Shown here: positions 7,549 to 57,775 of the stretch, one piece after another
Position numbering within the stretch: position 1 is the first letter of the stretch
How the letters are laid out: each line of letters starts with the position of its first letter
NCBI RefSeq assembly: GCF_036365525.1
Contig: NC_090404.1
Coordinates: 3,596,001 to 3,660,000 of the forward strand
Length of the DNA stretch: 64,000 bases
From: Heterodontus francisci
Lineage: Eukaryota
Direction of reading: 5' to 3'
Notes under the pieces: generated by a model
Told to the model about the DNA's origin: nothing
The model's input: only the letters and a program-made list of their open reading frames with translations
Databases searched by the model: none
Translations under genes and position numbers: made by a program

Positions 7549-7848
7549 CGCCACCGTCCTCCCCTATCCTCTATGCCGTCCTCTCCTCCTGTGAACAACC
7601 CAACACCAAAGGTTCCGTGACCTATGGCTGTTTGGCGATGGACTACATCCCCGATATCGCCACCGTTTCCTGGAAGAAAGATAAAGAGCCGATCACCACT
7701 GGACTGAAGACTTACCCGTCAGTGCTGAACACGAAGGGAACCTACACCCTGAGCAGCCAGTTAACTATAACCGAGTCAGAGGTGGGAAGCAGCAAAATCT
7801 ATTGCGAGGTTCGACACAAACGGTCAGACAAGATTATCGAAATGCCAG
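7549..7848 (+). CDS. IGHM: IgM heavy chain constant exon CH1 (Cmu1)
   Basis: Acceptor ttcctag|, donor |gttagt, phase 1/1. Encodes [99 protein letters not shown]: a C1-set domain with C-W-C, closely resembling shark Cmu1. Confidence 0.96.
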
Positions 7849-8590
7849 GTTAGTGCTGTGGGATAGAGAGGTCGTCAGTAGGCGGGGGAATGGGATCTGT
7901 GATAAGCCAAGAATATATGTTCAAATTGCAGAGATATTTGATTAAACAAGTCTTCGACTTGTGTCTTCAGGTCTTCATATCACACGTAGCATACTGAGCA
8001 TATTTCTGGTCCCTGTGTCACACTTATTGTTATGCACGCCGTTCTGCTTTCCATGTCACTCTTGGAGCAATGTAAACAGTTCTGCCCTCCATATTAAGAG
8101 AATCATACGGGGCAGTGGAGAAAGAGCAACAACTGTTTACAAGAACTAAACCAGAAATGAGAGGCCATAACTATCAAGAAAGATTGAATAGTCTTTTCTC
8201 TCCAAAAATGAAGGCTGAGGTGAGACAGAATATAGCTCTTTAGAATTATGAAGCAGATTGATAGGTCATGTATATAACACAGTCACTAGAAAAAAAAATC
8301 CAATGAGAAATTCAGGAGAAGCTTCTGTGCCCACAGAGAGACTAGAATGTGGAACTTGCCATAGTTGAGGCGAATAGCATAGGTGCCTTTAAAGGGATGC
8401 GGGATAAGTACATGGGGGAAAAGGAACAAAAGGTTCTTTTGATATGGCGAGATGAAATGGGGCGAGAGGATGCTCGTGTGGAGCAGCAACTCCGGCATCG
8501 AATGGCCTGTTTCTATTTTGCACATCCTGCAGTTGTCAATTGCTTGAATTTCAACAAATTTAAATCCCAATGATATGTATTTTCCTGTAG

Positions 8591-8902
8591 ATCGTGTGGT
8601 ACATCCTCCAACTGTTATCCTTACCCGGAGTTCCAGTGAAAAAATCACAAGCAGCAGATTTGCAACTGCCGTGTGTTCAGTAATCGATTTCCGTCCAAAG
8701 TCAATAACTGTGAGTTGGTTGAAGGATGGACAACCCATGGATTCGGGCTTTGTCACTTCTCCAGTCTTTGAAGTGAACGGGAACTTCTCAGCCACCAGTC
8801 GGCTTACAGTTCCCGCTGGGGAATGGTTCACCAACACGGTCTTTACTTGCCAGGTCTCTCATCAAGCGATTACCCAAAGTCAAAACATCACCGGATTTCT
8901 GG
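8591..8902 (+). CDS. IGHM: IgM heavy chain constant exon CH2 (Cmu2)
   Basis: Acceptor ttcctgtag|, donor |gtaaga, phase 1/1. Encodes [47 protein letters not shown]...[26 protein letters not shown]. Confidence 0.96.
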
Positions 8903-9049
8903 GTAAGAGACATAACCTAGGACAGTTTCAGGTCATTCTGAGCGTCAATCTTAAAAAGAGTTAAGAATGTTTTTGGACTTATCACAGAGTCCATAATTAT
9001 TTCTATTTTCCTATCATGCCGTTTGTGTTTCCTTCCAATTTAAAAGCAA

Positions 9050-9430
9050 AATACTTTCCTTTATACAGCGCCTTTAGTGACCTCCGATTGTCCTAAAACA
9101 CTTGACAGTCAATGGGATTACTTATGAAATGTGATCACTGTCGTAATGTACAAAGTTTTGTAGCCAGTTACTGCACATCAAGCTCTTAGGAACAGCAACA
9201 TGGTTTCATATTTGTTGAGGGATACATGTTGACCAGGAATCAGAGGCACCTGCTGAGTATTTCCAGCATTTTCTGTTTTTATTTAGATAGGCCCTCGGCT
9301 TAACATATCCCAAAGTTGTCACCTCCCACAATGCATTGCTCACTCGCCACTACATTGCGCATGTCAGCTCATGCTGGTGTTCAAATATCTGGAGTGGGAA
9401 TTGACCCCCCAATTCCTACCGAATCAGAAT
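9050..9430 (-). mobile_element. Degenerate Deu-domain SINE (SacSINE1-like) in the CH2-CH3 intron
   Basis: Patchy similarity to the better-preserved copy at 44248-44690 (tttatacagcgcc..., ggccctcggcttaacat..., ctggagtgggaattgaccc). Confidence 0.5.
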
Positions 9431-10539
9431 TCCTCAGGGTTTCGGATTCCATAACCTCGCAAAATAAGGTGTCCTTTTGTTCTGATGCTGGACAATGAGT
9501 GAGGAGTCATTGGCTTCAGTTTTACCCGAAATTGGCTGATCATATTCAAAGTGGCAGTAGGTATCTGCAAAGGTTTACTGGTAGTTGCCCAGCACCATAC
9601 TGCCAACAAATAACTTATTTAGGTTACTGCGTTCGTTTGAGCAGCGCTGAGGACTGGTTTCAGACTAGGCTTGCAAGCTTTTCAGTGTAGAAGATTAAGT
9701 GGTGATCCAATTGATGTGTTTAGGTTGATTAATGGGATTGATTCCAGAGATAGAGAGGAAATATTTCCTTTCGAGTGTTAGTCCAGAACATAACACTGTA
9801 GCCTTAAAATTACAAATAAGATATTCAAGGGTAATGTCAGGAAGGACGTCTTCATACAGGGGGCAGTTTAAAGTTGGAACTTTCATTACCAAAAATGGTG
9901 AAGTTGGGCTTCAAATGAAATATTTAAATATGATATTAATAGAGTTTCCTTAGGCAAGGGTATCAAGGATTACGGAACCCAGGAAGATAATTGGAGTTAA
10001 TATATAGATCACATATGGTCTAATTTATTTGCGGAATAAGCTCGAAGGGCGGAATGACCGCTTGTTTCTATTTACCTCACACTGCCCTGCTGTCACATCT
10101 CCTTCTGAATCTTTTTTTCACCAGCCTGACACATGAGAAACGATCACTAATGACAGATTGAGAAATTCCTTCACTCCGGCATTACAAACTATTCTGCAAC
10201 ACAAAAGATCCCTTGGAAATCCATTTTCCCGACCTTTCACCTCTCCCCTGACTGAGGCTGCGACGAGTTCCTGTACATTTCCATCGTCACAAAAATCCCA
10301 AAAGGCACTAAAGAATTAAAGTTGCCTCATGTTGCGTCTAAAATTCTGTATTTCCTTTGCTACCTGTTTTGAACCAGCGTAATTTGCTTGTAGATCTCTT
10401 GAGAGAAAGAGCGAACACATTGTGATCAACGGAGATGCGTGTAACATAAGAATCGATCGATAGGTATAAATGTGCAGCATGAATGACCGAGACTTGGCTG
10501 TGCAGGGCACAATTTCAAAAATTTTCGGACGACACTCAA

Positions 10540-11210: not shown

Positions 11211-11339
11211 TGTTTTGTTAATTCGTTTGTGGGATGTGGGCATCGCTGGCGAGGGCAGCATTTATTGTACATACCTAATTGCTCTTGACAAGCTGGTGAT
11301 GAGATGCCTTCTTGAGCTGCTGAAGTCCATGAGGTGTGT

Positions 11340-13024
11340 CATAGAGTCCTAAAGTCATAGAGTTATACAGCACAGAAAGAGGACCTTCGGCCCATCGTGT
11401 CTGTGCCGGCCATCCAGCACGCAACTATTCTAATCCCATTTTACTGCACTTGGCCCGTAGCCTTGTATGCTGTGGCGTTTCAAGTGCTCATCTAAATACT
11501 TCTTAACTGTTGTGAGGGTTCATGCCTCCACCACCTCTTCAGGCATGCGTTCCAGATTCCAACCACCAGCTGAGTGATTTTGTTTTCCTCATATTCCTGC
11601 AAACCTCCTTCCCCTTACCCTAAATGTATGCAGCTGGTTCTTGACCCCTCCGCTAAGGGAAAAAAGAGGTTTCTTCCTATCTAACCTATCAGTGGCCCTC
11701 ATAATCTTGTACGTCAATCATGTCCCCCCTCAGTCTTCACTGCTCCAAGGAAAACAACGCTAGCCTTTTCAGTCTCTCTTCATAGCTGAAATCCTCCAGC
11801 CCAGGCAACTTCCTGGTGAATCTCCTCTGCACCCTCTCCAGCGCAATCACATCCTTCCTACAGTGTGGTGCCCAGAACTGTACATAGTACTCCAGCTGTT
11901 GCCTAACCAGCGTTTTATATAGCTCCATCATAACCTCCCTCTTATATTCTAAGCCTCAGCTAATAAAGGCAAGTATCCCATATGCCTTCCTAACCACCTT
12001 ATCAACCTGTGCTGCTGCCTCAGTAATCTATGGACAAGTACACCAAGGTACCTCTGACCTTCTGTGCTTCATAGGGTCCTACCATGCATTGTATATTCCC
12101 TTGTCTTGTTCGTCGCCCAGAATGCACTACTTCACACTTTTCAGGATTAGATTCCATTTGCCACTGTTCCACCCTTCTTACCAACCCAAAGATATCGTCC
12201 TGGAATCTAAGGATTTCCTCCTCACTATTTACAACACCACCAATTTTCGTGTCATCTGCGAACTTACTGATCATACCTCCTATATTCATGTCTAAATCAT
12301 TGATGTACACTAAAAACAGCAAGGGTCCCAGCACCGATCCCAGTTGTACACCACTGGTCACAGGCTTCCAATCACAAAAACAGCCCTCGACCATCACCCT
12401 CTGTCTCCTGCCACTAAGCCAATTTTGGATCCAATTTGCCAAATTGCCCTGGATCCCATGGGATCTTACCTTCTTAACCAATCTCCCATGCGGGATCTTA
12501 TCAAAAGCCTTACTGAAATCCATGTATACTACATCTACTGCTTTACCCCCGTCTTCACATCCAGTCACCTCCTCGAAAAATTCAATCAAGTTAGTTAGAC
12601 ACGATCTCCTCCTAGCAAAGTCATGCTGACTATCCCTGATTAATCCCTGCCTCTCCAAGTGGAGATTAATCCTGTCTGTCAGAATGTTTTCCAATAGTTT
12701 CCCAAACACTGATGTGAGACTCATTGGCCTGAAAGTACCTGGTTTATTCCTGTTACCCTTCTTGAATAATGGTACCACATTCGCTGTCCTCCAGTCCTCT
12801 GGTACCTCTCCTGTGGCCAGAGAGGAATTGAAAATTTGTGTCAAAGCCCCTGCTATTTCCTCCCTTGCCTCACATAACAGCTTGGGATACATATCATCTG
12901 GGCCTGGGGATTTATCCACTTTTATGCGCGCTAAAACAGCTAATACTTCCTCCCTTTCAATGCTAATATGTCCAAGTATATCATAGTCCCCCTCCCTGAC
13001 CTCTACACCTACATCGCCCTTCAA
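11340..13024 (-). mobile_element. CR1 LINE, 5'-truncated (RT domain to 3' tail)
   Basis: ORF 12020-13024 ([26 protein letters not shown]), ORF 11737-11931, and tail repeats at ~11340-11370. Confidence 0.93.
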
Positions 13025-13497
13025 TCGTCGCTTTCAAAAGGGAATTGGATAATTTCCTAAAGATAAAAAAAATGCCTATCTGCGGGGAAAACGCAAGGGA
13101 GTGGGACGAACTGATTTACTCTTGCAGTGAGCTGGCGCTGTCATGAAGGGCCGAATGACTTCATTCTGTGCTGTTAACATTCTCTGATTTTCTGATTCCA
13201 TGATCTGGACGATGTTATCCAGTGCGTAATACAACTGCGCCTGAATTTATTCAAAATATTATGCTGAGAATTTACTTCACAGTCATTACATCGGACTCAG
13301 GGTGAAAATACATAGGAAATGTTCGAGTTTTCTGGAATCGTTGTCTAGCCTTTTCCCTGCCAATAACGATGGCGTTAACGCAGCACAGGGATTGATATCT
13401 TAAAGGTGATATATTTTCCTTGAGGGAGTGAAGGCTGAATACTGGTGTCCTGATACTGAAGATGAAACTTTGATTGTCTCGAATTTCTGTTACACAG

Positions 13498-13806
13498 TTG
13501 GTCCCGCATGCACCGATCCAGTGATCATCCTGCCACAACCTTCAATAGAACAGGTCTTACTGGAAGCGACGGTGACCTTAACCTGCGTTGTGTCTAATGC
13601 TCCTTATGGAGTCAACATAACCTGGATACAAGAAAATAAGCCTTTGAAATCAGAGATTGCTGTCCAACCCGGAGAGGATCCCAACAGCGTGATCACCACC
13701 GTAAACATCTCGACACAAGCCTGGCTGAGTGGGGCTGAGTTCTACTGCGTGGTGAGCCATCAGGATCTGCCGACTCCTCTCAGAGATTCCATCCACAAGG
13801 AAGAAG
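13498..13806 (+). CDS. IGHM: IgM heavy chain constant exon CH3 (Cmu3)
   Basis: Acceptor tacacag|, donor |gtaagc, phase 1/1. Encodes [46 protein letters not shown]...[29 protein letters not shown]. Confidence 0.96.
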
Positions 13807-14255: not shown

Positions 14256-14647
14256 TTGAGAATCTGCGGGAACCGTCCGTGTCTGTCCTCCTGCCCCCGG
14301 CAGAAGAAGTCTCCGCTCAGAGGTTCCTCTCCCTCACCTGCTTAGTGAGAGGTTTCTCCCCCCGAGAGATCTTCGTCAAGTGGACCGTCAATGACAAGTC
14401 GGTGAATCCCGGCAACTACAAGAACACCGAGGTGATGGCAGAGAACGACAATAGCTCCTTCTTCATCTACAGCCTGTTATCCATTGCAGCAGAGGAGTGG
14501 GCCAGCGGCGCTTCTTACTCCTGTGTGGTGGGACATGAAGCGATCCCCTTGAAGATCATCAACAGAACGGTTAATAAATCCAGCGGTAAACCGAGTTTTG
14601 TGAACATTTCCCTTGCACTGTTGGACACCGTTAATTCATGTCAATGA
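14256..14647 (+). CDS. IGHM: IgM heavy chain exon CH4 plus secretory tailpiece
   Basis: Acceptor tttctgcag|. Encodes [43 protein letters not shown]...[24 protein letters not shown] followed by the tailpiece [20 protein letters not shown] (N-glycosylation site, penultimate Cys). Internal donor G|GTAAAC after 14585 serves the membrane form. Confidence 0.97.
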
Positions 14648-14675
14648 GAATCTCTCGATTGCATTTCAATTCTTA

Positions 14676-15169: not shown

Positions 15170-15880
15170 AAATGCACAGGCGCACGGACACAAACAGACA
15201 TAAACACACTTACATGCACAGCGACGCACATATAACTACACAGGAACAGACCCAAATGCTGATATCAAGATTCCCACAGGCACACACGCAATCATTAACA
15301 TAAATACACACATTGGTACAGTTTCACGAACAGAGAAACAGAGACAAATAGCCTACACTATCATACACGTTAACACACGCACATTTGAACACCATGGGGA
15401 TACAAGCACACAAAAACAGACATATTAACACTCATATACACACACATGTACACATAAATACGCACCAAAACATAGGGAAACATAAACACATCCATCAACA
15501 CATAAACACACGGATTAACTCGCATAGGGGCACAAACACATACATACACAACCATTATTATGCTCATACACACACATGAACAGATAAAAACAACATACAA
15601 ACACACACAGGCGGCCACTTGAATGCACAAATCAATGCACATTGGGACATTAATACACATTAACATACAGGGGCACATACACAACGCCATTAACATATAA
15701 ACATGCGCATTGACACACGCACATTTGGGCACACAAGCAAACACATTAGCACGCACATTAACACAGACACGCTGACATGGATACACAAACACAGAGCAAT
15801 GCAAAGCAAAGGATACTCAAACACACGTGCACACACACTAAAGCACACAAACAAAAACACCGTCTACAGACGAAAGTAGA
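15170..15880. repeat. Degenerate CA-rich low-complexity tract
   Basis: Imperfect (CA)n/(CATA)n run; produces spurious CV/HT-rich ORFs. Confidence 0.85.
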
Positions 15881-18270: not shown

Positions 18271-18398
18271 ATTCCCCAGACCACATCTGGATTGAAGGCA
18301 ATGAGGAAGAGAGCGGCAACATCTGGACAACCGCTTCCACATTCATCATCCTGTTCTTCCTAAGCATCTTCTACAACGCTGCCGTCACTCTGGTGAAG
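18271..18398 (+). CDS. IGHM: IgM transmembrane exon TM1
   Basis: Acceptor ccccgtag|, donor |gtggga, in frame with the CH4 internal donor. Encodes DSPDHIWIEGNEEESGNIWTTASTFIILFFLSIFYNAAVTLVK (acidic spacer plus CART-type TM). Not in the ORF track. Confidence 0.95.
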
Positions 18399-18535: not shown

Positions 18536-18544
18536 GTCAAATGA
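18536..18544 (+). CDS. IGHM: IgM TM2 exon, coding part VK-stop (KVK cytoplasmic tail)
   Basis: ctcttttacag|GTC AAA TGA. Confidence 0.92.
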   Translation, partial: VK

Positions 18545-19998: not shown

Positions 19999-21730
19999 GT
20001 GTGGAGCCAGAGGACATGGGTGAGGTTTTAAATGATTACTTTGCATCTGTGTTCAGTATGGAGAAGGACGACGTAGGAGGAGAGATCAGGAGGGGGATTG
20101 TGATATACTTGAACACATTAGCATTGAAAAGGAGTAAGTATTTGCTGTTGTAGTGGGCTTAGAAATGGCCCAGATGAGATGTATCCCAGGCTGCTATGTG
20201 AGGAAAAGGAGGAGAGAGCAGGGGCTCTGAGACAAATTTTCAAAGCCTCGCTGGCAACAGGAGAGGTGCCAGAGGACTGGAGGACACTGAATGTGGTGCT
20301 ACTATTCAAGAAGGGTAGCAGAGATAAACCAGGTAATGACAGGCCGGTGAGTCTACATCAGTGGCTGGGAAAATAGTGGAAAACATTCTGACGGACAGGA
20401 TTGGTCTCCACTTGAAGAGGCAGGGATTAATCAGGGATGGTCAGCAGAGCTTCGTCGGGGGAGATCGTGTCTAACTAAATTAATTGAATTTTTTGAGGAG
20501 GTGACTAGATGTGCAGATGAGGGTAAATCAGTTGATGTAGTGTACATGGACTTCAGTGAGACTTTTGATAAAGTCCCGCATGGGGGATTGGTTAAGAAGG
20601 TAAGAGCCCATGGGATCCAGGGCAATTTGGCAAATTGGATCCAAAATTGGCTTAGTGGCAGGAGGCAGAGGGTGATGGTCGAGGGTTGTTTTTATGAGTG
20701 GAAGCCTGTGACCAGTGGTGTACCGCAGGCATCGGTGCTGGGACCCTTGCTGTTTGTAGTGTACATTAATGAATTAGACGTGAATATCGGAAGTATGATA
20801 AGTAAGTTCGCAGATCTCACGAAAACTGGTGGTGTCGCAAATAGTGAGGAAGAAAGCCTTAGATTCCAGGACGATATAAATGGGCTGGTAAGATGGGCAG
20901 AGCAGCGGGAAATGGAATTTAATCCTGAGAAGTGTGCGATGATGCATTTTGGGAGGACTGACAAGGCTAGGGAATATACAATGGATGGTAGGACCCGAGG
21001 AAGTACAGAGTGTCAGAGGGACCTTGGGGTGCTTGTCCACAGATCACTGAAGGCAGCAACACAGATAGATAAGGTGGTCAGGATGGCATATGGGATACTT
21101 GCCTTTATCAGCCAAGACATAAAATATAAGAGCAGGGAGGTTATGATGGAGCTGTATGAAACGCTAGTTAGGCCACAGCTGGAGTACTGTCTACAGTTCT
21201 GGGCACCACACTATCGAAAAGATGTGATTGTACTGGAGAGGGTGCAAAGGAGTTCACCAGGATTCTGCCTGGGCTGGAGCTTTTTCAGCTATGAACAGAG
21301 ACTGAAAAGGTGAGGGTTGTTTTCCTTGGAGGAAACAAGGCTGAGAGGGGACATGATTGAGGAAGACAAAACTATGAAGGGCATTGATAGTTTAGAAAGG
21401 AAGACACTTTTTCCCTTTATGGAGGGGTCAATAACAAGTGGGCATAGATTTAAGGTAAGGGGCAGGAGATTCAGAGGTGATTTGAGGAAAGATTTTTTCA
21501 CCCAGAGGGTGGTGGGAATCTGGAAAGCACTGCCTGAAGAGATGGTAGAGGCAGGAACCCTCACAACATTTAAGAAGTATTTCGATGAGCACTTGAAACG
21601 CCATAGCACACAAGGCTACGAGTCAAGTGCTGGAAAATGGGATTAGAATAGTTAGGTGCTTGATGGCCGGCGCGGACAGGGTGGGCCGAAAGGCCTGTTT
21701 CTGTGCTGTATAACTCTGTGACTGTATGAC
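19999..21730 (+). mobile_element. CR1 LINE, 5'-truncated
   Basis: ORFs 20179-20376, 20501-21313 and 21317-21646; tail aactctgtgactgtatgac. Same subfamily as 11340-13024. Confidence 0.93.
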
Positions 21731-22488: not shown

Positions 22489-24123
22489 CTTCTTCTTTGG
22501 CCTCCTTATCTCGAGAGACAATGGGTAAGCGCCTGGAGGTGGTCAGTGGTGTGTGGAGCAGCGCCTGGAGTGGCTATAAAGGTCAATTCTAGAGTGGCAT
22601 GCTCTTCCACAGGTGCTGCAGACAAATATGTTTGGCGGGGCTGTTACACAGTTGGCTCTCCCCTTGCGCTTTTGTCTTTTTTCCTGCCAACTGCTAAGTC
22701 TCTTCGACTCGCCACACTTTAGCCCCGCCTTTATGGCTGCCCGCCAGCTCTGGCGATCACTGGCAACTGACTCACACGACTTGTGATTAATGTCACAGGA
22801 CTTCATGTCGCATTTGTCTTTAAAGCGGAGACATGGACAGCCAGTGGGTCTGAAACCAATGGCGAGCTCACTGTACAATGTGTCTTTGGGGATCCTGCCA
22901 TCTTCCATGTGGCTCACATGGCCAAGCCATCTCAAGCGCCGCTGACTCAATAGTGTGTATAAGCTGGGGATGTTGGTCGCCTCGAGGACTTCTGTGTTGA
23001 AGATACGGTCTTGCCACCTGATGCCAAGTATTCTCCGAGGGCAGCGAAGATGGAATGAATTGAGACATCGCTCTTGGATGACATACGTTGTCCAGGCCTC
23101 GCTGCCATAGAGCAAGGTACTGAGGACACAGGCTTGATACACTCGGAATTTTGTGTTCCTTGTCAGTGCGACATTTTCCCACACTCTCTTGGCCAGTCTG
23201 GACATAGCAGTGGAAGCCTTTCCCATGCGCTTGTTGATTTCTGCATCTAGAGACAGGTTACTGGTGATAGTTGAGCCGAGGTAGATGAACTCTTGAACCA
23301 CTCCCAGAGCGTGGTCGCCAATATTGATGGATGGAGCATTTCTGACGTCCTGCCCCACAATGTTCGTTTTCTTGAGGCTGATGGTTAGGCAAATTCATTG
23401 CAGGCAGCCACAAACCTGTAGATGAGACTCTGCAGGCACTCTTCAGTGTGGGATGTTAAAGCAGCATCATCAGCAAAGAGGAGTTCCCTGATGAGAACTT
23501 TCCGTACTTTGGTCTTCGCTCTTAGACGGGCAAGGTTAAACAACCTGCCTCCTGATCTTGTGTGGAGGAAAATTCCTTCTTCAGAAGACTTGAATGCATG
23601 TGAGAGCAGCAGGGAGAAGAAAATCCCAAAAAGTGTGGGTGCGAGAACACAGCCCTGTTTCACGCCACTCAGGATAGGAAAGGGGTCTGATGAGGTGCTG
23701 CCATGTTGAATTGTGCCTTTCATATTGTCATGGAATGAGGTGATGATACTTAGTAGCTTTGGTGGACATCCAATCTTTTCTAGTCGTCTGAAGAGACCAC
23801 GTCTGCTGACGAGGTCAAAGGCTTTGGTGAGATCAATGAAAGCAATGTGGAGGGGCATCTGTTGTTCGCGGCATTTCTCCTGTACCTGACGAAGGGAGAA
23901 CAGCATGTCAACGGTCGATCTCTCTGCAGGAAAGCCGCATTGTGCCTCAGGGTAGAGTCGCTCGGCCAGCTTCTGGAGCCTGTTTAGAGCGACTCGAGCA
24001 AAGACCTTCCCTACTATGCTGAGCAGGGAGATTCCACAGTAGTTGTTGCAGTCACCACGGTCACCTTTGTTTTATAGAGGGTGATGATATTGGCATCGCG
24101 CATGTCCTGAGGTACTGCTCCCT
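22489..24123 (-). mobile_element. RTE-clade LINE, 5'-truncated, with 19-bp target-site duplication
   Basis: ORFs 23385-23906 (FIDLTKAFD, GVKQGCVLAP, LFADD) and 22543-23358 (YLGS, LLYGSEAW, RLRWLGH, C-terminal CxxC..H). (AAG)n tail. TSD cactttacactgtcaggat at 22470-22488 and 24124-24142. Confidence 0.93.
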
Positions 24124-24612: not shown

Positions 24613-24651
24613 GGTTACTGTATGGACTCGCTATCTGTTTGTGACACTGTG
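24613..24651 (-). other. 23-spacer RSS of the TCR V pseudogene
   Basis: Minus strand CACAGTG (24651-24645), 23-nt spacer, ACAGTAACC (24621-24613). Confidence 0.9.
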
Positions 24652-24974
24652 GTTCTTACTGCAGAGATAAGTGACTGTGTCTGTCACTTCCGCTTCTCTC
24701 ACAGTCAGGGTACTGAGCTGATTACCTCCGCCGATTGAAACACTGATCCTCCCGTTTTGATCAGTCCCGCGTGTGGCCATCACCAAATGCTGGAGGGGCT
24801 GATTGGGGCCCTCTCGGTACCAGCGCAAGATGTTAAATGCAGCGATAGCATGGATACCGTTCCCACTTCATTAACAACTACCAGCCGAAGGAGCTGCACC
24901 ACCCCATCTTCACCGGTCACATAAGTGCAGATCAGAGTGTAAAACAGCAAGACAACTCTGTAGATCGAGAGCAT
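24652..24974 (-). pseudogene. TCR alpha/delta-type V pseudogene with leader contiguous with V (no intron)
   Basis: MLSIYRVVLLFYTLICTYVTG-EDGVVQ..VNEVGTVSML, then a frameshift with the first Cys missing, then AFNILRWYREGPNQPLQHL...GRISVSI..STLTVREAEVTDTVTYLCSKN, directly followed by a 23-RSS. Confidence 0.85.
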
Positions 24975-25777: not shown

Positions 25778-28700
25778 TTATTCGGAAGCAGAGAGTGCGA
25801 GCGAGTGATCAGCTGGGAAGGTCAATTTCAACTGAAACTTAAATTCCGTTTGTTTTCGGCGGACCAGGGGGCTTCTGGCAGTTTATTCGGAAGCAGAGAG
25901 TGCCAGCGAGTGATCAGCTGGGAAGGTCACTTCAACTGAATCTTAATTTCCTTTTGTTTACGGCGGACCAGGGGTCTTCTGGGTAAGTAAACACCTATAT
26001 ATTTGGGCCGTTTCTGAATTGGTCACACCACAGATTAGGATTGCTGAGGGAGATAGGGAATGGGTGACCAAAAGGCAGAGAAAGAGCAGGAAGGCAGCGC
26101 AGGTGTCCCCTGCGGTCATCTCCATCCAAAACAGGTATACCATTTTGGATGCTGTTGAGGGAGATGGCTCACCAGGAGAAGGCAGCAGTAGCCAGGTTCA
26201 TGGCACCGTGGCTGGATCTGCTGTGCGGAAGGGCGAGAAAAAGAGTGGAAGGGCTATAGTCATCGGGGATTCGATTGTAAGGGGAGTAGATAGGAGGTTC
26301 TGTGGTCGAAACGAGACTCCCGAATGGTATGTTGCATCCCAGGTGCACGGGTCAGGGATGTCTCAGATCGGCTGCAGAACATTCTGAAGGGGGAGGGTGA
26401 ACAGACAGTTGTCGTTGTGCACATAGGCACCAATGATATAGGTAAAAAACGGGATGAGGTCCTACAAGCAGAATTTAGGGAGTTAGGCGCCAAATTAAAA
26501 AGTAGGACCTCAGAGGTAGTAATCTCAGGATTGCTACCAGTGCCACGTGATAGTCAGAGTAGAAATGAAAGAATAGTCAGGATGAATGTGTGGCTTGAGA
26601 GATGGCGCAGGAGGGAGGGGTTCAGATTTTTGGGACATTGGGACCGGTTCTGGGGGAGGTGGGACTATTACAAATTGCACGGTCTACACCTTGGCCGGAC
26701 TGGAACCAATGTCCTTGGGGGTGCTTTTGCTAACGCTGTTGGGGAGGGTTTAAACTAATGTGGCAGGGGGATGGGAACCAAATGAGGAGGTCAGTGGATA
26801 GTAAGGAGGTAGTAACTAAAGCCTGTAAGGAACTAGATAATGAAGTCAGAGTGACTAAGGGAAAGAGTAGGCAGGGAGCAGATGATGTACGCAAAGGGAC
26901 TGGTGGTCTGAGGTGCATTTGTTTGAATGCAATAAGTGTAGTAGGTAAGGCAGATGAACTTAGGGCTTGGATTAGTACCTGGGAGTATATTGTTATTGCT
27001 ATTAATGAGACTTGGTTGAGGGAAGGGCATGATTGGCAACTAAATATCCCAGGATATCGATGCTTCAGGCGGGATAGAGAGGGAGGTAAAAGGGGTGGAG
27101 GAGTTGCATTACTGGTCAAAGAGGATATCACAGCTGTGCTGAAGGAGGGCACTATGGAGGACACGAGCAGTGAGGCAATATGGGCAGAACTCAGAAATAG
27201 GAAGGATGCGGTCACAATGTTGGGGCTGTACTACAGGCCTCCCAACAGCGAGCGTGAGATAGAGGTACAAATATGCAAACAGATTATGGAAAGATGTAGG
27301 AGCAACAGGGTGGTGGTGATAGGAGATTTTAATTTTCCCAACATTGACTGGGATTCACTTAGTGTTAGAGGTCTAGATGCAGCAGAATTTGTAACGAGCA
27401 TCCAGGAGGGTTTTCGAGAGCAGTATGTAAATAGTCCAACTCGGGAAGGGGCCATACTGGACCTGGTGTTGGGAAATGAGCCCGGTCAGGTGGTTGAAGC
27501 TTCAGTAGGGGACTACTTTGGGAATAGTGATCACAATTCCGTAAGTTTTAGAATACTCATGGACAAAGACGAGAGTGGTCCTAAAGGAGGAGTGCTAAAT
27601 TGGGGGAAGGCCAACTATACCAAAATTCGGCAGGAGCTGGGAAATGTAGATTGGGAGCAGCTGTTGGAAGGTAAATCCACATTTGATATGTGGGAGGCTT
27701 TTAAAGAGAGGTTGATTAGCGTGCAGGAGAGACATGTTCCTGTGAAAATGAGGGATAGAAATGGCTAGACTAGGGAACCATGGATGACAGGTGAAATTGT
27801 GAGACTAGCTAAGAGGAAAAAGGAAGCATACATAAGGTCGAGAAGGCTGAAGAAAGACGAAGCTTTGAAAGAATATCGGGAATGTAGGACCAATCTGAAA
27901 CGAGGAATTAAGAGGGCTAAAAGGGGTCATGAAATATCTTTAACAAACAGGGTTAAGGAAAATCCCAAAGCCTTTTATTCATACATAAGGAGCAAGAGGG
28001 TAACTAGAGAAAGGATTGGCCCACTCAAGGACAAAGGAGGAAAGTTATGCGTGGAGTCAGGGAAAATGGGTGAGATTCTAAATGAGTACTTTGCATCGGT
28101 ATTCACCGAGGAGAGGGACATGACGGATGTTGAGGTTAGGGACAGATGTTTGATTACTCTAGGTCAAGTCGGCATAAGGAGGGAGGAAGTGTTGGGTATT
28201 CTAAAAGGCATTAAGGTGGACAAGTCCCCAGGTCCGGATGGGATCTATCCCAGGTTACTGAGGGAAGTGAGAGAGGAAATAGCTGGGGCCTTAACAGATA
28301 TCTTTGCAGCATCCTTAAACACGGGTGAGGTCCCGGAGGACTGGAGAATTGCTAATGTTGTCCCCTTGTTTAAGAAGGGTAGCAAGGAAAATCCAGGTAA
28401 TTATAGACCGGTGAGCCTGACGTCAGTGGTAGGGAAGCTGCTGGAGAAGATACTGAGGGATAGGATCTATTCCCATTTGGAAGAAAATGGGCTTATCAGT
28501 GATAGGCAACATGGTTTTGTGCAGGGAAGGTCATGTCTTACCAACTTAATAGAATTCTTTAAGGAAGTGACAAAGTTGATTGATGAGGGAAGGGCTGTAG
28601 ACGTCATATACATGGACTTCAGTAAGGCGTTTGATAAGGTTCCCCATGGTAGGCTGCTGGAGAAAGTGAAGTCGCATGGGATCCAGGGTGTACTAGCTAG

Positions 28701-29794
28701 ATGGATAAAGAACTGGCTGGGCAACAGGAGACAGTGAGTAGCTGTGGAAAGGAGTTTCTCAAAATGGAGACGTGTGACCAGTGGTGTTCCACAGGAATCC
28801 CTGCTGGGACCACTGTTGTTTGTGATATACATAAATGATTTGGAGGAAAGTATAGGTGGTCTGATTAGCAAGTTTGCAGACGACACTAAGATTGGTGGAG
28901 TAGCAGATAGTCAAGGGGACTGTCAGAGAATACAGCAGAATATAGATAGATTGGAGAGTTGGGCAGAGAAATGGCAGATGGAGTTCAATCAGGGCAAATG
29001 CGAGCTGATGCATTTTGGAAGAGCCAATTCAAGAGTCAACTATACAGTAAATGGAAAAGTCCTGGGGAAAATTGATGTCCAGAGAGATTTGGGTGTTCAG
29101 GTCCATTGTTTCCTGAAGGTGGCAACGCAGGTCAATAGAGTGGTCAAGAAGGCATACGGCATGCTTTCCTTCATCGGACGGGGTATTGAGTGCAAGGGTT
29201 GTCAGGTCATGTTACAGTTGTATAAGACTTTGGTTCGGCCACATTTGGAATACTGCTTCCAGTTCTGGTCGCCACATGACCAAAAGGATGTAGATGCTTT
29301 GGAGAGGGTGCAGAGGACGTTCACCAGGATGTTGCCTGGTATGGAGGGCGCTAGCTATGTAGAGAGGTTGAGTAGATTAGGATTATTTTCATTAGAAATA
29401 CGGAGGTTGAGGGGGGACCTGATTGAGGTGTACAAAATCATGAGCGGCTTTGACAGGGTGGATAGCAAGAAGCTTTTTCCCAGAGTGGTGGATTCAATTA
29501 CTAGGGGTCACGAGTTCAAAGTGAGAGGGGAAAAGTTTCGGGGGATATGCGTGGAAAGTTCTTTACGCAGAGGGTGGTGGGTGCCTGGAACGCATTGCCA
29601 GCGGAGGTGGTAGACGCGGGCACGATAGCATCTTTTAAGATGTATCGAGACAGATACATGAATGGGCAGGAAGCAAAGAGATACAGACCCTTAGAAAATA
29701 GGCGACATGTTTAGATAGAGGATCTGGATCGGTGCAGGCTTGGAGGGCCGAAGGGCCTGTTCCTGTGCTGTAATTTTCCTTGTTCTTTGTTCTA
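25778..29794 (+). mobile_element. CR1 LINE, near full-length: two 105-bp 5' monomers, partly deleted ORF1 (esterase), ORF2 with few lesions
   Basis: Tandem monomers start at 25778 and 25883. ORF1 has GDSIVRG, HIGTND, GLHL and ends at 26758. ORF2 26758-~29700 is interrupted by stops at 27766-68 and 28735-37 and a frameshift near 29540. (TTTGTTC)n-type tail. Confidence 0.95.
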
Positions 29795-44212: not shown

Positions 44213-44247
44213 CATTTTGGCATGGTGACTGCAATAAAGAAAAAGAA

Positions 44248-51176: not shown

Positions 51177-51212
<36 letters not shown>

Positions 51213-51586: not shown

Positions 51587-51765
51587 AGGATCAGCGCGGG
51601 GGCCGGGGAGATCAGCGCGGGGGCCGGGGAGATCAGCGCGGGGGCCGGGGACAGCACAGCAGCGCGGGGGCCGGGGAGAGCAGCGCGGGGGCCGGGGAGA
51701 TCAGCGCGGGGGCCGGGGACAGCACAGCAGCGCGGGGGCCGGGGAGAGCAGCGCGGGGAGACCAG
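51587..51765. repeat. GC-rich 21-bp minisatellite (GATCAGCGCGGGGGCCGGGGA)n
   Basis: About 8 units, some with an acagcaca variant. Confidence 0.9.
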
Positions 51766-51777
51766 CGGTAGCGGTGC

Positions 51778-52150: not shown

Positions 52151-53769
52151 TGCCTTTTTCTGTGCATGCGCCATAAACACAACAGCAAAAGACTTACTGG
52201 CCAGTCCCTGGACCCGGTGACACCAAGGTCTTCGCACGCTCGCTCCCCGCGGCTCTCTACGGCCTCTCGCTTCCGGCCCTCTCCATTCAGCCGTTCCCTC
52301 CAGCTGCGGATGCCCAATCCAGTTGCTTTCTCCCCTACCCAGTTGCTTTCTCTACTTCTCCTCAGTACTTCAGGCATTGCAACTGTTTGGTCCCTGCATT
52401 TTGCATGCTCCCTCTCCCCACCCCTCCCTGCACTCCCCACCCCTCCCCCTCTTCACCCACCCCTCCCTCTACCCCCCCACCATAGTTGAATATCTGAAGT
52501 GCAGTTGCAAAGTCGGGGAAATAGCATGCAAAACAAAACCTCAACAATTCTGGGTTTAATTATTGAAAAGTTTTATTAAGTTCATTAAGTATCTGAGGAA
52601 CTGCTGTGCATGGATACATGAGTGTTGTGTCCAGCATTCCCGTTAGACAGACAGGCCGAGTCTCTGCGATGCACAGCTAAAGAGATTGTTCCTGGAGAGC
52701 CTTGTGGTGAATAAAAGCTTGGCTCTCTATTCCACTACTGTATTGTCCATGTGAAGAAGGCAAAGTCACAAGAGTCTGAGCTCAGTCTATTCTTGGTGAA
52801 TTTTCCCCAAGCGCATCCCAATGTGCATTCCCAATTCATCCATAAATGCAATGTTCCTTTCCACATCGTGATGAGCTCCGCAGCATGATCCAGTTACCTT
52901 CGTTGCTTGAATGCTGACCTTAAGTCTCAAGGATTGTTTTCTCGACGGCATGTTTTACATGAAAAGAAATAAAGCAAATCAGAGTCAGAGCTGCCTCCCT
53001 CCATCCACTGAAATTACTGTTGCGCACACCTTTTTAAGTTCTGCAGTGAAGGCACCAATTGATAACGTCGCCAATGAAGCACTTATTACCCACCTCAGAT
53101 GCAGGAATCATCACATCCTTGCGTCATCTCCTGCACTGCCTCCTTTGCTTGAATGCCATCCTTAAGTGTCAAGGATGGTTTTCTCAAGGGCACGTTTTAC
53201 ATGAAAGAAAATAAGGAAAGAACATCAGTGTCAGAGCTTCCCTCCCTTCAATGGAATTACTGTTGAGCATGCTTTGTGTTCTGCGGTAAAGGCATGTACT
53301 GATAACACCGCCAATGAATCACTTAGTACCCACCTCAGCTGTAGGAGGCAGGATGATGTTATTGTCCCTATCTCGTGATGGTTCAATGCTGCTCTCAGGG
53401 AAAACATGAATGATGTGAGGGTGCTGGAAAAGAAGCACATTTCTTTTGGGCTATGAACATAAAGCTGTCCATTTAGCCCAGCAGTTCCCTGCTAGTGGTT
53501 ATGTTACTCGTGCATCTTCCCATCCATTCCCATTTAATCCTGCCTACTACTATCACCAGTTGTGTTCACAGCAAGAGCATTCACATTGCTGCTACCACTG
53601 GACACGGCATGCTTGTTTCTTTTAGTGCTCAGTCTCTTCTTGCTGAATGTTCCCCAAGTGCTTGACCCCTTTGGACGCCCTCTCTGCTTGACAGGCAGCA
53701 ACTGGCAATTGCGGAGTCTCACAAGGCTCTGCATGGTTGTTTCAACGTCGGATGGGGAAACAGGTGGCT

Positions 53770-54090
53770 GTGTGTCCATGAGCACTGCCCTGATGGGTGT
53801 AGGAGCAGGTAACTGTGTGCCCATGAGCACTGCCCTGATGGGTGTAGGAGCAGGTAACTGTGCAACTGAGCACTGCCCTGATGGGTGTAGGAGCAGGTAA
53901 CTGTGTGTCCATGTGCACTGCCCTGATGGGTGTAGGAGCAGGTGACTGTGTGCCCATGAGCACTGCCCTGATGGGTGTAGGAGCAGGTAACTGTGTGCCC
54001 ATGAGCACTGCCCTGATGGGTGTAGGAGCTGGTAACTGTGTGTCCATGTGCACTGCACTGATGGGTGTAGGAGCAGGTGACTGTGTAACT
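53770..54090. repeat. 45-bp tandem repeat, about 7 copies
   Basis: gagcactgccctgatgggtgtaggagcaggtaactgtgtgcccat units. Confidence 0.92.
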
Positions 54091-54697
54091 GAGCAGCAAG
54101 GAGAGGGTACCGTAGGTAGGGGAAGTGGAGATTTGAACAGGCAGGCATATGTATGGTCCATCAGATCATTAGGCCAGGGGGTGAGACGCTCAGGATCCAG
54201 GGTTTGTGACACGTGACTGATGTCCAGCGCGTGGCCACCTCCATCCGAAGGTGCTTCCGGGCAATTGTTGGGCATAGTAAATGGCTCCATCTCATCAGCC
54301 AGTCCTTGCTGCCAGCGGAGAGTCTGTTGCCGCAGCCAGTCCAGTCTCCTCATGAATGCTGCCGTTCCACTCTGCAGAACGGCCTGTTGTAGCTGGTACA
54401 ATTGATCTGAAAGCAAGCGGTATTTTTCATTGTGGCTGAGGGGCCTTGGCTGTTCCTCTGTAATCACAATGGCAGCAGCCATACCTGTCGTCGTTGGTGT
54501 CTGAGATGCACGCCAGCGACAATTGGGGGCGAGCCTGTCCAAAGGCAGACCCAGATGCCTCTGCACAACAACAGCATGTTTGCAGGGCAACAAAGTCTGA
54601 ATGGAGAAGATGCAGCTGCAGGTAGCCTGGCCATCATGTATCTGCAGTGTGTACTGTTTGGCGCCAGAAATCACAGTCACTGTGTCTTCATCCTGGT

Positions 54698-54920
54698 ACA
54701 TGCGGTGGCCAAGACAATGGAAATGTTTTCAGAGCAATTTACAACAGGGACTGGAGAACATGCGGTGGCCCAGACAATGGAAATGTTTTCAGAGCAACTT
54801 ACAACAGGGACTGGAGAACATGCGGTGGCCCAGATAATGGAAATGTTTTCAGAGCAACCCACAACAGGGACTGGAGAACATGCGGTGGCCCAGACAATGG
54901 AAATGTTTTCAGAGCAACTT
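54698..54920. repeat. 60-bp tandem repeat, about 3.7 copies
   Basis: acatgcggtggcccagacaatggaaatgttttcagagcaacttacaacagggactggaga units. Confidence 0.93.
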
Positions 54921-55275
54921 GCAAAGGCAGAGCAACTTACCTTGGAACAATCTCCTGTGTCAAATAAAAATGAAGCAAGCCTCCAAAACGAATACATAAT
55001 TCAGATAAAATGCCCGACGAAACCTCCCCTCCTTCCACTTTTAAAAAGTCGCGCTGAAGCTTTGACGCATGCGCAGAGGCCAAACTGGCGCGTCGGCGAG
55101 AAAGACGAAATAACGCGATGACGTCATCTGCGCATGCGCACGACCGTACCGGCAGGTCGGACCGCAGCGCATGCGCAGGGATGAGGAGACTGGGTGCGCA
55201 TGCGCGGACCGCGGCGCATCCTGATGACGTTTTCCGATGAAGTAGCGTTGTCATGAATTACTTTGCACAGAGAGA

Positions 55276-55770
55276 TGGAAGCTCAGACCGCGTGCATTCT
55301 GTTCTCAATGTGACGCTCATTTGTTACATTCACTTTGTGTTAACTTTTAAATTTTTCTCTCTCGATTGTTCTCTGTCAAATTGTTAATAAATCTCGAATA
55401 GCAAATGGGCAACGTTCGATTTTGCGGATTTTTTTTTCTCCAAGGCGCCTCCTCACGGTTCCATTTTCCCATTCATTTTATTTCTCTGGCAAGTATTTTT
55501 CTCCTGCTTTGTCTGAGTAAGGTTTGAACACAAGTCCCTATTGTTCAAGGAACCAGTGCGCCATTCAATGACACATCAAAGCAAACACACCTTTTCCTTC
55601 ATGGCTCAGAGGCTGAATGGCTGCATAGCCACTAGGTGCACCTCCCAGTCTACTCTGAGACTATAAACAGTAGCAGTCAGATTCCAGGTTCCATTAATGA
55701 GCGGGGCTCTGCTCCAACACAGCCTTATATAATACAGCACATTGCTGATTACATTTCCATTTAAACAGCG
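55276..55770 (+). pseudogene. Relic of a second IgH gene end: TM 3'UTR, polyA site and downstream flank
   Basis: Collinear similarity to 18861-19330: gctcagacc..ttctgttctcaatgtgac; aattgt.aataaatct.gaata.caa; tctgctcca....agcct.ata.aa. Confidence 0.75.
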
Positions 55771-56049
55771 CCATCAAATATTCACAAGGCATGCACAGCA
55801 CAGTTTAGGTGTCGGACACAGACACAACGGGAAGCACAAAACCTTGGAATGATTCACAGAGCCTGGGGCCCAGGGACACAACAAAAAGCATAAACCCTGA
55901 AAATTATTCCCATGGACTGGGGCTTATTGGACACATCAAGGAACAGAAGCTCTCAGAAGGATTTGACATTGTAGCACTTCGCCTCAACCCATAAACACAA
56001 ACACTCTATCTCCATCTTTTTTCTGTTATACCCATTAACCCTGCACAGA

Positions 56050-56565
56050 ATGTACTGGCACTGGAGAGGGGGCAGAGGAGGTTCGCTCGGTTGATTCTGG
56101 AGTTGAGGGGGTTGGCTTATGTGGAAAGACTGAGTAGATTGGGATTATATTCATTGGAATTCAGATGAATGAGGGGGGATCTTATAGAAACATATAACAT
56201 TATGAAGGGAATAGATAAGGTACAAGTAGAGAGGATGTTTCCACTGGCAGGTGAAGCTAGGACAAGAGGGCATAGCCTCAAGATTAGAGGGAGCAGATTT
56301 AGGACTGAATTAAGAAGGAACTTCTTCACCCAGAGGGTTGTTAATCTATGGAATTCCTTGCCCAGTGAAGTAGTTGACGCTTCTTCAGCAAACGTTTTTA
56401 AACCTAAGGCAGATATCTTTTTGAACAATAAAGGAATTAAGGGATACGGTGAGAGCGCGGGTAAGTGGATCTGAGTCCACGAAACGATCAGCCATGATCT
56501 GATTGAATGGCGGAGCAGGCTCGAGGGGCCGGACGGCCGACTCCTGCTCCAAGTTCCTATGATTA
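56050..56565 (+). mobile_element. CR1 3' fragment
   Basis: ORF 56169-56474 (RGDLIETY..FFTQRVVNLWNSLP). Confidence 0.9.
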
Positions 56566-57238
56566 AAGCAGTTGGGGTAGTGCGCATGTGCGTCCCGTTA
56601 TCCCAGAGAGCAGGTCGGCCCAGCCCACAGAGAAGGGCCTTTCCCAGCTGCTGTGAATTGTGGGAGCAGCAACGCTCAATGGCCCAGTCATTGACTGAGT
56701 GAATCCAAACGCAGAATAAAAACAGAAAATACTGGAAATACTCAGCATGTGGCAGCAACTGTGAAGAGAAAAACAGTGTTAACTGTTCAGGTCTGTGACC
56801 TTTCATCCTCCTTACAATCGGGACCTGACGGGTTGTTGGTCCCGAAAAACTGCGGATGTCCTGTTGAGTGGAGAATCTCTGATCGGAGAATGAAGCCGGG
56901 AAATCCCAGGAGGTGTTCACCAACGCAATCGGGAAAGACGGATTCAAACAAAGAAAAAGAGAGAAAACTTCACTGCTCCTCATGGAAACCGGCGTAAATA
57001 AATTTAACCTCTATGGTGATAAACGACTAAGCAGAATATGCATTTTTATGGAAAGACTCACATTGTGTACACAGAATGAAGTGAGAAGTGGGGTAAATGC
57101 AGAAGTAATTAAATAGAGGAATCGAACTGAACATCAGAAAAGAGCAATGCTGAAGGGCATGAGCAGGAAAATGAAAGTGAAAACTTGATGAGCTCAGTGA
57201 AGATTTATGCACGATAAATTCTACGATTAATTGCAATT

Positions 57239-57467
57239 GAAGATTTCTACACTTTCCCCGTGCTTTATATCCTTGGGTCTCTGCAAATCACAGAATGTTC
57301 AGGTCTTATGTACAGCTCTGTCCGTGCTCTGTACCACTGTGTTTTGCTTTATGCCACCGTGCTCAGGTTTCTGTACAGTTGTCTCCGTGCTCTGTATCAC
57401 TGTGTGTCTGTAATCCCCACCACGTTCAGGTTTTTGTACAGCCCTCTCCGTGCTCTGTATCACTGTG
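57239..57467 (-). other. Tandem array of 23-spacer RSSs (3 complete, 1 decayed), period ~63 bp
   Basis: Heptamers CACAGTG at 57467-61, 57404-398, 57341-35. Nonamers ACAAAAACC 57437-29, ACAGAAACC 57374-66, ACATAAGAC 57311-03. All spacers are 23 nt. Decayed fourth copy at ~57239-57277. Confidence 0.92.
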
Positions 57468-57775
57468 AGCTATGCGCCGACTCAGTGCACAGTAATACAC
57501 AGCAGAGTCACTCATTTGGAGTTTGGCGATGTTTAACCGGCTGATTTTCTCGGCAGGATCAATAAAAGCAGAAATTCGTCCCCCAGCAGCGTTTTCTTTA
57601 TTCTCCTGTCCTGAAGTTTGTCTCTGAAGCAGGTATTTCGGAGCCTGCCCTGGGGACTGACGGTACCAGTGTACTGTGTACTGACAGAACCCTGAATATT
57701 CACAGCTTAAAGTAACAGTCTCACCGACAGCAGAGGTTTGCAGAGGCGCACTCCGGGACACCAGCGAACTGGAAT
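57468..57775 (-). CDS. TCR delta-type V exon with extra CDR1 cysteine (NAR-TCR supporting-Vdelta-like), open frame
   Basis: Acceptor ttcataccacag|, phase 1. Encodes DSSSLVSRSAPLQTSAVGETVTLSCEYSGFCQYTVHWYRQSPGQAPKYLL...GRISAFIDPAEKISRLNIAKLQMSDSAVYYCALSRRIA, followed by a perfect 23-RSS. No intact leader exon found. Confidence 0.9.

What the first reader, a model, noticed from the sequence alone, without database searches (positions are those of the whole stretch)
7549..57775. Intact IgM constant gene lying tail-to-tail with TCR delta-type V segments
Seen: all six Cmu exons are open with canonical splice sites on the + strand, and two TCR-type Vs on the - strand have 23-RSSs pointing towards the IgM gene. 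Established: sharks have clustered IgH miniloci, and IgH V-TCRdelta chimeric rearrangements and NAR-TCR are known from nurse shark. Inference: a complete, potentially expressible IgM cluster is embedded in or adjacent to the TCRalpha/delta V array. The geometry would allow inversional Vdelta(23)-to-IgH D(12) joins giving TCRV-D-J-Cmu. If Ddelta-Jdelta-Cdelta lies to the left on the - strand, Vdelta use would delete this IgM gene and its VH could join Ddelta by inversion. No TCR D, J or C and no VH-D-JH is visible in this window.
Basis: partly seen in the sequence, partly recalled or inferred. Interest (0 to 1): 0.75.

Follow-up and report, generated by a model that had tools for sequence, protein, structure and literature searches.

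The report
Pre-joined IgM inside shark TCR locus

Summary
Observation confirmed; mechanism mostly wrong. The six Cmu exons are open. Leader and VH lie 2.1-2.7 kb left of the window as a germline-joined in-frame VDJ (603-aa membrane, 578-aa secreted chain). With no D and no RSS, the proposed Vdelta-to-IgH-D inversion and VH-to-Ddelta join cannot happen at this cluster. One TCR V is a pseudogene; the other is a leaderless NAR-TCR supporting Vdelta whose NAR V-D-J lies 9-11 kb to the right. The Vs are not orphons: Calpha, about 100 Jalpha and TCRdelta D-J-C lie 130-410 kb left, and 48 Cmu4 exons are interleaved with the V array over 10 Mb. IgM among TCRalpha/delta and NAR-TCR Vs is published for other elasmobranchs (PMC12227049), and the scan noted similar windows on other DNA. 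Not found in my searches for sharks: two opposed, open Ddelta-Jdelta-Cdelta units (62% identical) enclosing VH-like Vs, as known from frog, finch and newt. So Vdelta use need not delete the IgM gene. No expression or read data obtained. New variant of a known kind; interest 0.4.

The parts
7549..7848 (+). Cmu1 exon. Its leader and germline-joined VDJ exon lie outside the window, 2.1-2.7 kb to the left (C34:3593346-3593896; L010 7346-7391 and 7519-7896)
   Evidence: C1-set E 8e-15; Cys14, 27, 85. VDJ in frame, GT/AG ends, no RSS; the junction holds 12 nt identical to germline D1
8591..8902 (+). Cmu2 exon
13498..13806 (+). Cmu3 exon
14256..14648 (+). Cmu4 exon (internal donor after 14585) with secretory tail ending in a penultimate Cys; polyA signal 14676
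18271..18398 (+). IgM TM1 exon
18536..18544 (+). IgM TM2 exon (VK-stop); polyA signal 18972
24613..24974 (-). TCR V pseudogene (leader contiguous with V, frameshifted) with 23-RSS at 24613-24651
   Evidence: 78% identical to an intact paralogue at C34:3566.2-3566.6 kb, with two deletions
57468..57775 (-). NAR-TCR supporting Vdelta exon: open, leaderless, CDR1 Cys. Its NAR leader, V (22-RSS), D and J (23-RSS) lie outside the window to the right (C34:3662985-3664313; L011)
   Evidence: splices in frame to the NAR J; the NAR V's best PDB matches are VNARs; 63-85% matches to V domains in gene models of other elasmobranchs, those inspected being NAR-V+V type
57303..57467 (-). Ladder of three 63-bp units, each with a 23-RSS (heptamers at 57467, 57404, 57341; 0, 1 and 3 mismatches). 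Possible partners lie outside the window to the left: D of TCRdelta unit B (+ strand, C34:3443365-3461950) and D of unit A (- strand, C34:3301752-3343718)
   Evidence: delta units

Best explanation
The window holds the constant exons of a complete, germline-joined IgM gene, the Ddelta-nearest of about 50 IgM miniclusters interleaved with the V genes of a shark TCRalpha/delta locus, and having no recombination signal it likely rides passively through TCR rearrangement instead of forming hybrids. Shown by sequence: the joined VDJ, the open Cmu, the absence of RSS, the NAR-TCR cassette to the right, and two opposed D-J-Cdelta units to the left. Inferred: in B cells the gene would be transcribed as a fixed-specificity heavy chain that needs no RAG step. 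In a T cell, the NAR V-D-J would rearrange inside its 1.3-kb cassette while the supporting Vdelta (23) joins a Ddelta (12). That join is either a 310-kb deletion to unit A, which removes the IgM gene and unit B, or a 210-kb inversion to unit B, which keeps both the IgM gene and unit A. The published IgH-V/TCRdelta 'trans' rearrangements would here be cis joins made by the 34 VH genes that keep a 23-RSS, not by this one.
For: Joined VDJ in frame with leader and Cmu. The RSS scan from -2700 to 24000 found only one weak hit, an 11-bp spacer at 17663. Germline D1 sequence lies in the junction. Three tandem duplicates share one identical VDD junction (L065, L069, L071), so joined clusters here are inherited. 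48 full-length Cmu4 matches at 86-100% identity, all on C34 at 3.61-13.87 Mb, 22 + and 26 -, overlap 142 of 150 V-domain hits at 3.37-13.89 Mb (some of these are VH). 25 of 25 supporting-type Vs have a same-strand NAR V 4-17 kb upstream. Both Cdelta genes have three open exons, hinge Cys and TM, and each has a 12/23 D and its own J set. The order IgM/NAR-TCR/V - VH-like V - Cdelta - Calpha matches the catshark and stingray sheets of PMC12227049 table S1, and the divergent IgH beyond Calpha matches the stingray sheet.
Against: No RNA, read or rearranged sequence was seen, so expression of the IgM gene, of either Cdelta, and use of the inversion route are all untested. The window's own junction is single-copy, so its germline status rests on analogy and on an assembly consensus. 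FR1 has an unusual extra Cys and no octamer-like promoter motif was found by the small motif scan, whose list was short. Accessibility, not RSS geometry, may forbid one of the two routes.
Confidence: 0.85

Rival explanations
1. One reading: TCR Vdelta inverts into this cluster's D segment to give TCRV-D-J-Cmu, and the VH joins Ddelta by inversion.
For: The orientation is as described. 26 other IgM clusters on the contig keep V23, a 12-RSS D and a J RSS, so the join is legal there. IgH-V/TCRdelta chimeras are reported in nurse shark (passages of PMC5931798, PMC3457774, PMC12227049).
Against: This cluster has no free D, no JH RSS and no VH RSS. One V is broken and the other lacks a leader. The passages read describe only IgH V on TCR D-J-C, not TCR V on Cmu.
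Confidence: 0.03
2. The IgM gene is an intact but silent relic carried along by segmental duplication within the V array.
For: The next cluster (3.87 Mb) is also joined and has a split, stop-bearing CH4. Many copies are near-identical tandem duplicates. The VH is divergent: best paralogue 84% aa, 90% nt.
Against: All 8 exons are open with canonical splice sites and both polyA signals despite about 10% nucleotide divergence from the nearest VH; both secreted and membrane forms are intact.
Confidence: 0.3
3. The juxtaposition, or the second Cdelta unit, is an assembly artefact (mis-join or haplotype echo).
For: The region is rich in LINE repeats and near-identical cluster copies; raw reads were not examined.
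Against: No N in 3.296-3.760 Mb. The arms of the inverted duplication are only about 72-89% identical over most blocks and the Cdelta proteins 62%, too far apart for a haplotype echo. The gene order agrees with other elasmobranchs, and Heptranchias has two Cdelta-bearing models on a contig of one length.
Confidence: 0.05
4. Pre-joined clusters are kept next to Ddelta by selection, because an RSS-free IgM gene cannot be broken or captured by the nearby TCRdelta recombination centre.
For: The two clusters nearest Ddelta are both fully joined, against 4 of 50 overall; naive chance 0.005.
Against: The test was made after seeing the pattern and the copies are not independent. The second cluster is a pseudogene. 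Twelve unjoined clusters follow at 4.0-4.85 Mb, and VH-like Vs with perfect 23-RSSs lie right beside Ddelta.
Confidence: 0.12

Closest known systems
Elasmobranch antigen receptor complex (AgRC; Flajnik et al. 2025, PMC12227049; parts 1-2 of 8, section 15 and all of table S1 read)
   Same: IgM clusters linked to TCRalpha/delta, with TCR V exons between them. The great white sheet lists IgM in both orientations among NARTCR and TCRa/d V; the catshark sheet lists 'IgM (gj)' and IgM-TAILV-TCRD-TCRA on one scaffold.
   Different: This species is not among the four tabulated (0 hits for its names in the supplements). The parts read work from gene models and give no RSS map. Table S1 shows no pair of opposed Cdelta genes. 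Here about 50 IgM clusters are resolved on one contig.
Germline-joined elasmobranch IgM clusters (VD-J, VD-DJ, VDJ; passage in PMC5192425)
   Same: Fully joined VDJ in front of a normal four-domain Cmu; partial joins in sister clusters.
   Different: Unlike nurse shark IgM1gj (three C domains, same review) this gene keeps all four. Its position next to TCRdelta is not discussed in the passages read.
NAR-TCR (features from passages of PMC1845163; the 2006 original was not read)
   Same: NAR V with leader, A-B loop Cys and no WYRK Trp; own D and J; leaderless supporting Vdelta with CDR1 Cys.
   Different: A ladder of tandem 23-RSSs follows the supporting V; this is not in the passages read.
Duplicated D-J-Cdelta of frog and zebra finch (PMC3457774, passages and Fig. 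5 legend) and opposed TRDC-J-V clusters of the newt Pleurodeles (PMC12698447, passages and part of the discussion)
   Same: Two Cdelta genes, each with its own J set; VH-type V genes associated in frog and finch; opposite orientation in newt, inversion in frog.
   Different: Those are tetrapods. Here the two Cdelta group with each other (support 88/91, below the tool's star threshold) rather than each with a gene of another shark, and the locus also contains whole IgM clusters and NAR-TCR.

Membership tests
Shark IgM heavy chain gene | Four C1-set constant exons plus secretory tail with penultimate Cys and two TM exons | tested here: met
Shark IgM heavy chain gene | Own leader, VH, D, JH upstream as a minicluster | tested here: met
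   Present but pre-joined, 9.7-10.2 kb upstream of CH1
Shark IgM heavy chain gene | Expression as mRNA or protein | not tested
Rearranging (unjoined) IgM minicluster V23-12D22-12D12-23J | RSS-flanked separate V, D1, D2, J | tested here: not met
   No RSS at this cluster; the pattern is present at 25 other clusters, plus one with a single D
Germline-joined VDJ IgM | Contiguous in-frame V-D-J with recognisable germline D and no RSS | tested here: met
   D1 recognisable, D2 not
Germline-joined VDJ IgM | Join present in non-lymphoid (germline) DNA | not testable with these tools
   Only the assembly was seen; identical junctions in duplicated sister clusters are indirect support
NAR-TCR supporting Vdelta | No leader exon | tested here: met
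   0 leader candidates in 1.5 kb upstream; the same scan found the VH and pseudo-V leaders
NAR-TCR supporting Vdelta | Non-canonical Cys in CDR1 | tested here: met
   Translation; feature as given in PMC1845163
NAR-TCR supporting Vdelta | Upstream NAR V-D-J with A-B loop Cys and no WYRK Trp, splicing in frame | tested here: met
Functional TCR V (24.65-24.97 kb segment) | Open frame with both canonical Cys | tested here: not met
   Two deletions, first Cys lost
TCRdelta constant unit (A and B) | D with 12/23 RSS, J with 12-RSS and FGxG, C exon, hinge Cys, TM; lying 5' of Jalpha-Calpha | tested here: met
   The C exons match C1-set weakly (20.8 and 21.6 bits, cut-off 21). The delta label rests on the D, the position and 47-59% identity to the C of NAR-V-bearing models; the database names those models 'alpha chain-like'.
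TAILV (TCRdelta-associated Ig-like V) | A distinct phylogenetic lineage of VH-like V used only with TCRdelta | not tested
   The Vs between the two Ds are VH-like (43-60% to the window's VH) with 23-RSS and no D-J-C of their own; no nurse shark TAILV sequence was at hand, so I call them VH-like

The most novel reading that the evidence does not exclude
This shark's TCRdelta locus is a working mirror: two divergent D-J-Cdelta units face outwards from a core of VH-like V genes, each unit with its own set. Every minus-strand V in the 10-Mb array, including 19 of 25 NAR-TCR supporting Vs and the VH of unjoined IgM clusters, could first invert onto unit B, keeping all IgM clusters and unit A, and then be replaced by a second join to unit A. 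One allele would get two tries and two delta isotypes. The RSS-free IgM gene in this window would then be a buffer kept at the edge of the recombination centre.
Probability: 0.3. Interest if true: 0.65.

Novelty: new variant of a known kind. Interest (0 to 1): 0.4.

Why it matters
The value is in the map. (1) All 48 full-length IgM Cmu4 matches share one 10-Mb stretch with the TCRalpha/delta V array. This makes the old 'trans-rearrangement' question a cis one with countable predictions: which VH, which Cdelta, deletion or inversion. (2) It sharpens an open problem: how B cells recombine inside miniclusters without touching the TCR segments around them, while T cells recombine across them. (3) Two opposed, open Cdelta units with VH-like Vs between them extend to a shark an arrangement that the papers read describe in frog, finch and newt. 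This bears on the model that D-J-Cdelta duplication plus VH insertion led to VHdelta and TCRmu, although the tree here favours separate duplications.

Tried and rejected
Vdelta-to-IgH-D inversion and VH-to-Ddelta join at this cluster: rejected, no RSS. Orphon Vs: rejected. Pfam DUF1968 (TCR alpha C) search of the genome found nothing, and nothing in the controls either. V replacement through a cryptic heptamer in the joined VH: read by eye, the heptamer has mismatches and no nonamer follows; not supported. Other Ig domains between TM2 and the supporting V: the first 40 rows of the tblastn (list cut at 40, so the rest was not seen) showed only the pseudo-V and a LINE match; the motif scan found no other V in the window. 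Selection on the extra RSS copies: in 66 extra units, heptamer (0.065), spacer (0.069) and nonamer (0.064) mismatch rates are alike, and only the linker is higher (0.162, inflated by length slips in ungapped comparison), so no RSS-specific constraint is shown. Orthology of Cdelta A and B with the doubled genes of other sharks: not supported; the tree is mostly unresolved, 6 of 10 inner branches open. A search with Cdelta B returned only 3 proteins, all seen before. Expression and read support remain open. One search's J-to-V splice test was off by one base and was redone. One search's leader coordinates were off by one and were redone. One search's automatic J 'ok' count was mis-set and was not used. 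PMC7014580 was irrelevant.
Full report
Place. The window is G000:C34:3,596,001-3,660,000, on a 59.5-Mb contig of a 6.0-Gb genome. Five of the 62 relatives are labelled Heterodontus francisci and come from a contig of exactly that length, so the animal is very likely the horn shark. Coordinates below are window coordinates unless marked C34.

Observation. All have AG/GT ends and each CH passes the C1-set cut-off. An RSS scan of both strands gave five hits: a ladder of three 23-RSSs at 57467, 57404 and 57341, one 23-RSS at 24651, and one weak hit in a CA-rich repeat at 15380.

The IgM gene is pre-joined. The leader and V exon lie 2.1-2.7 kb left of the window (C34:3,593,346-3,593,896). The V exon runs straight from FR1 through the YYC-type motif, the CDR3 and WGQGT to a GT donor. 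Spliced, the gene gives 603 aa (membrane) and 578 aa (secreted) without a stop. Twelve bases of the junction are identical to the germline D1 of unjoined clusters; D2 is not recognisable. From 2.7 kb left of the window to position 24000 the only RSS-like hit is a weak one with an 11-bp spacer. So there is no D for a Vdelta to invert into and no RSS by which this VH could reach Ddelta.

The two TCR Vs. The V at 24.65-24.97 kb lacks about 10 nt including the first Cys and 2 nt at the YYC against an intact paralogue at C34:3,566 kb (78% identical); it is a pseudogene. The V at 57468-57775 is open, has a Cys in CDR1 and no leader within 1.5 kb, while the same scan found the leaders of the VH and the pseudo-V. 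Nine to eleven kb to the right (C34:3,662,985-3,664,313) lie a leader, a V with an A-B loop Cys and no WYRK Trp, a D and a J. The V's best PDB matches are VNARs and the J splices in frame to the window's V. These are the features given for NAR-TCR in PMC1845163 (passages). All 25 Vs of this type listed on the contig have a same-strand NAR V 4-17 kb upstream; 19 of the 25 are on the - strand.

The locus. A Cmu4 search returned 48 full-length matches at 86-100% identity (one with a stop) and seven split or partial loci, all on C34 between 3.61 and 13.87 Mb, 22 on + and 26 on -. None of the 150 scored matches reached that level on another contig (counts are lower bounds). The V search put 142 of 150 hits on C34 at 3.37-13.89 Mb, some of them VH. 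IgM clusters and TCR Vs therefore share one 10-Mb interval, and the window's gene is the first IgM. Of 50 IgM-type VH examined (49 in L041-L088 plus this one; taken's list, which misses some clusters), 4 are VDJ-joined, 10 VDD-joined, 2 V-D1-joined and 34 keep a V 23-RSS. Of those 34, 25 show V, two Ds and a J RSS and one shows a single D (classified by eye from the printed RSS lists). The two clusters nearest Ddelta are both fully joined (naive chance 0.005; post hoc, copies not independent), and the second has a split CH4 with a stop.

Two delta units. A search with a Cdelta-type stretch of P0028 hit two C exons and three TM exons on C34 (the third TM also matches C1869). Reading 3.178-3.496 Mb gave this order: Calpha (3,184 kb, -); about 100 J motifs on - (about 20 + 35 + 44); Cdelta A (3,303,942-3,301,752, -); 21 J motifs; D (12/23) at 3,343.7 kb; VH-like Vs, most with 23-RSSs, - strand at 3,368-3,394 kb and + strand at 3,408-3,426 kb (5 and 3 open); D (12/23) at 3,443.4 kb; 11 J motifs; Cdelta B (3,460,184-3,461,950, +). 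Both C genes have three open exons, a hinge Cys and the same TM type, and are 62% identical. The arms align collinearly in inverse at about 72-89% over most blocks, so this is an old inverted duplication and not a haplotype echo. There is no N from 3.296 to 3.760 Mb. In a 14-row tree A and B are sisters (88/91, unstarred, long branches). Two Heptranchias models on a contig of one length form their own pair (83%), and seven Mustelus models on separate contigs are 82-100% alike. Cdelta doubling thus seems to recur in sharks, but orientation is known only here.

How it likely works (inference from RSS geometry and the 12/23 rule). The IgM gene needs no RAG step and would give a fixed heavy chain in B cells. 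Distal + strand Vs can stay on the chromosome only by inverting to unit A; a join to B would excise the whole V-D-J-C as a circle. VH genes with a 23-RSS follow the same rules, which would make the known IgH-V/TCRdelta chimeras cis events. A TCR V on Cmu is legal on paper at the 26 unjoined clusters, but I saw no report or sequence of it.

What is known. PMC12227049 (parts 1-2 of 8, section 15 and all of table S1 read) reports IgM, IgW and IgNAR linked to TCRalpha/delta in four elasmobranchs with TCR V exons between IgH clusters. Its table lists IgM among NARTCR and TCRa/d Vs in great white and a germline-joined IgM in catshark. Joined clusters are reviewed in PMC5192425 (passages). IgH-V/TCRdelta chimeras are stated in PMC5931798, PMC3457774 and PMC6795676 (passages). 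A second Cdelta with its own D and J is described for frog and zebra finch (PMC3457774, passages), and opposed TRD clusters for a newt (PMC12698447, passages and first part of the discussion). PMC12529555 (passages) added nothing. I found no paper on two Cdelta genes or on RSS ladders in a shark in searches (listings seen). These searches did not return the primary nurse shark locus papers and I read only some of the listed papers, so this is weak evidence of novelty. The scan's earlier notes on other genomes describe pre-joined IgM beside TCR Vs and the RSS ladder; none on a mirrored Cdelta came up.

Limits. No RNA or raw reads were seen, so expression, germline status of this single junction, and use of either route are untested. 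The mirrored delta units are the part worth a specialist's time.

Noticed in passing
window 57303-57467 (-) and 24 other loci (L012, L107-L109, L112-L131): A 62-63-bp tandem ladder of 23-RSSs follows NAR-TCR supporting Vdelta genes: two or more good RSSs at 19 of 25 loci, up to 14 units (L130), against single RSSs at all 10 conventional Vs in 9 control loci. In the window the V frame meets a stop in the first unit. A read-through of a like ladder is in P0055. The scan has noted this on other genomes.
   Followed up: yes
C34:3,301,752-3,461,950 (L021-L037): Old inverted duplication giving two open D-J-Cdelta units facing outwards around VH-like V genes.
   Followed up: yes
window 24652-24974 (-); C34:3,513 kb and 3,566 kb (L002, L008): A TCR V family whose leader is contiguous with the V exon (no leader intron), a possible mark of retroposition or intron loss.
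   Followed up: no
C34:3,671.8 kb and 3,697.8 kb (L012, L014): A decayed TCR V without a clear RSS sits upstream of each of the two near-identical NAR-TCR cassettes, so a 25-28-kb block was probably duplicated in tandem.
   Followed up: no
C34:6,699,801-6,730,897 (L059-L061): Four identical-scoring VH with D1 but no detected D2 or J RSS, in a double palindrome; may be a real nested inversion or an assembly artefact.
   Followed up: no
L072 (C34:7.377-7.380 Mb): An IgM cluster with a single D between V23 and J23, apparently a D1-D2 fusion.
   Followed up: no
C34:1.44-2.01 Mb and 33.8-43.6 Mb: Divergent IgH-like C exons (40-42% to Cmu4) on the same contig. The 1.4-2.0-Mb group has VH genes, one with three Ds (L089), and is probably IgW; the 33-43-Mb group has NAR-like Vs and is probably IgNAR. 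Labels are inferred from position and PMC12227049.
   Followed up: partly
G000:C1869:27426-27521: A copy of the Calpha TM exon with the same score as the C34 one on another contig, probably an alternate haplotype.
   Followed up: no
P0023, P0028, P0035, P0043, P0054, P0063, P0064: Seven Mustelus asterias gene models with Cdelta-type domains 82-100% alike on separate contigs, several with their own NAR V, suggesting amplified TCRdelta clusters or haplotigs.
   Followed up: partly
window 76-3934, 12023-13033, 20351-21643, 22546-24071, 26294-29610: LINE-type reverse transcriptase remnants, one inside the Cmu2-Cmu3 intron; also C2H2 zinc-finger-like remnants near 30.2-30.8 kb and a transposase-like ORF at 53745-54728 (-) (labels from motifs, recalled).
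   Followed up: no
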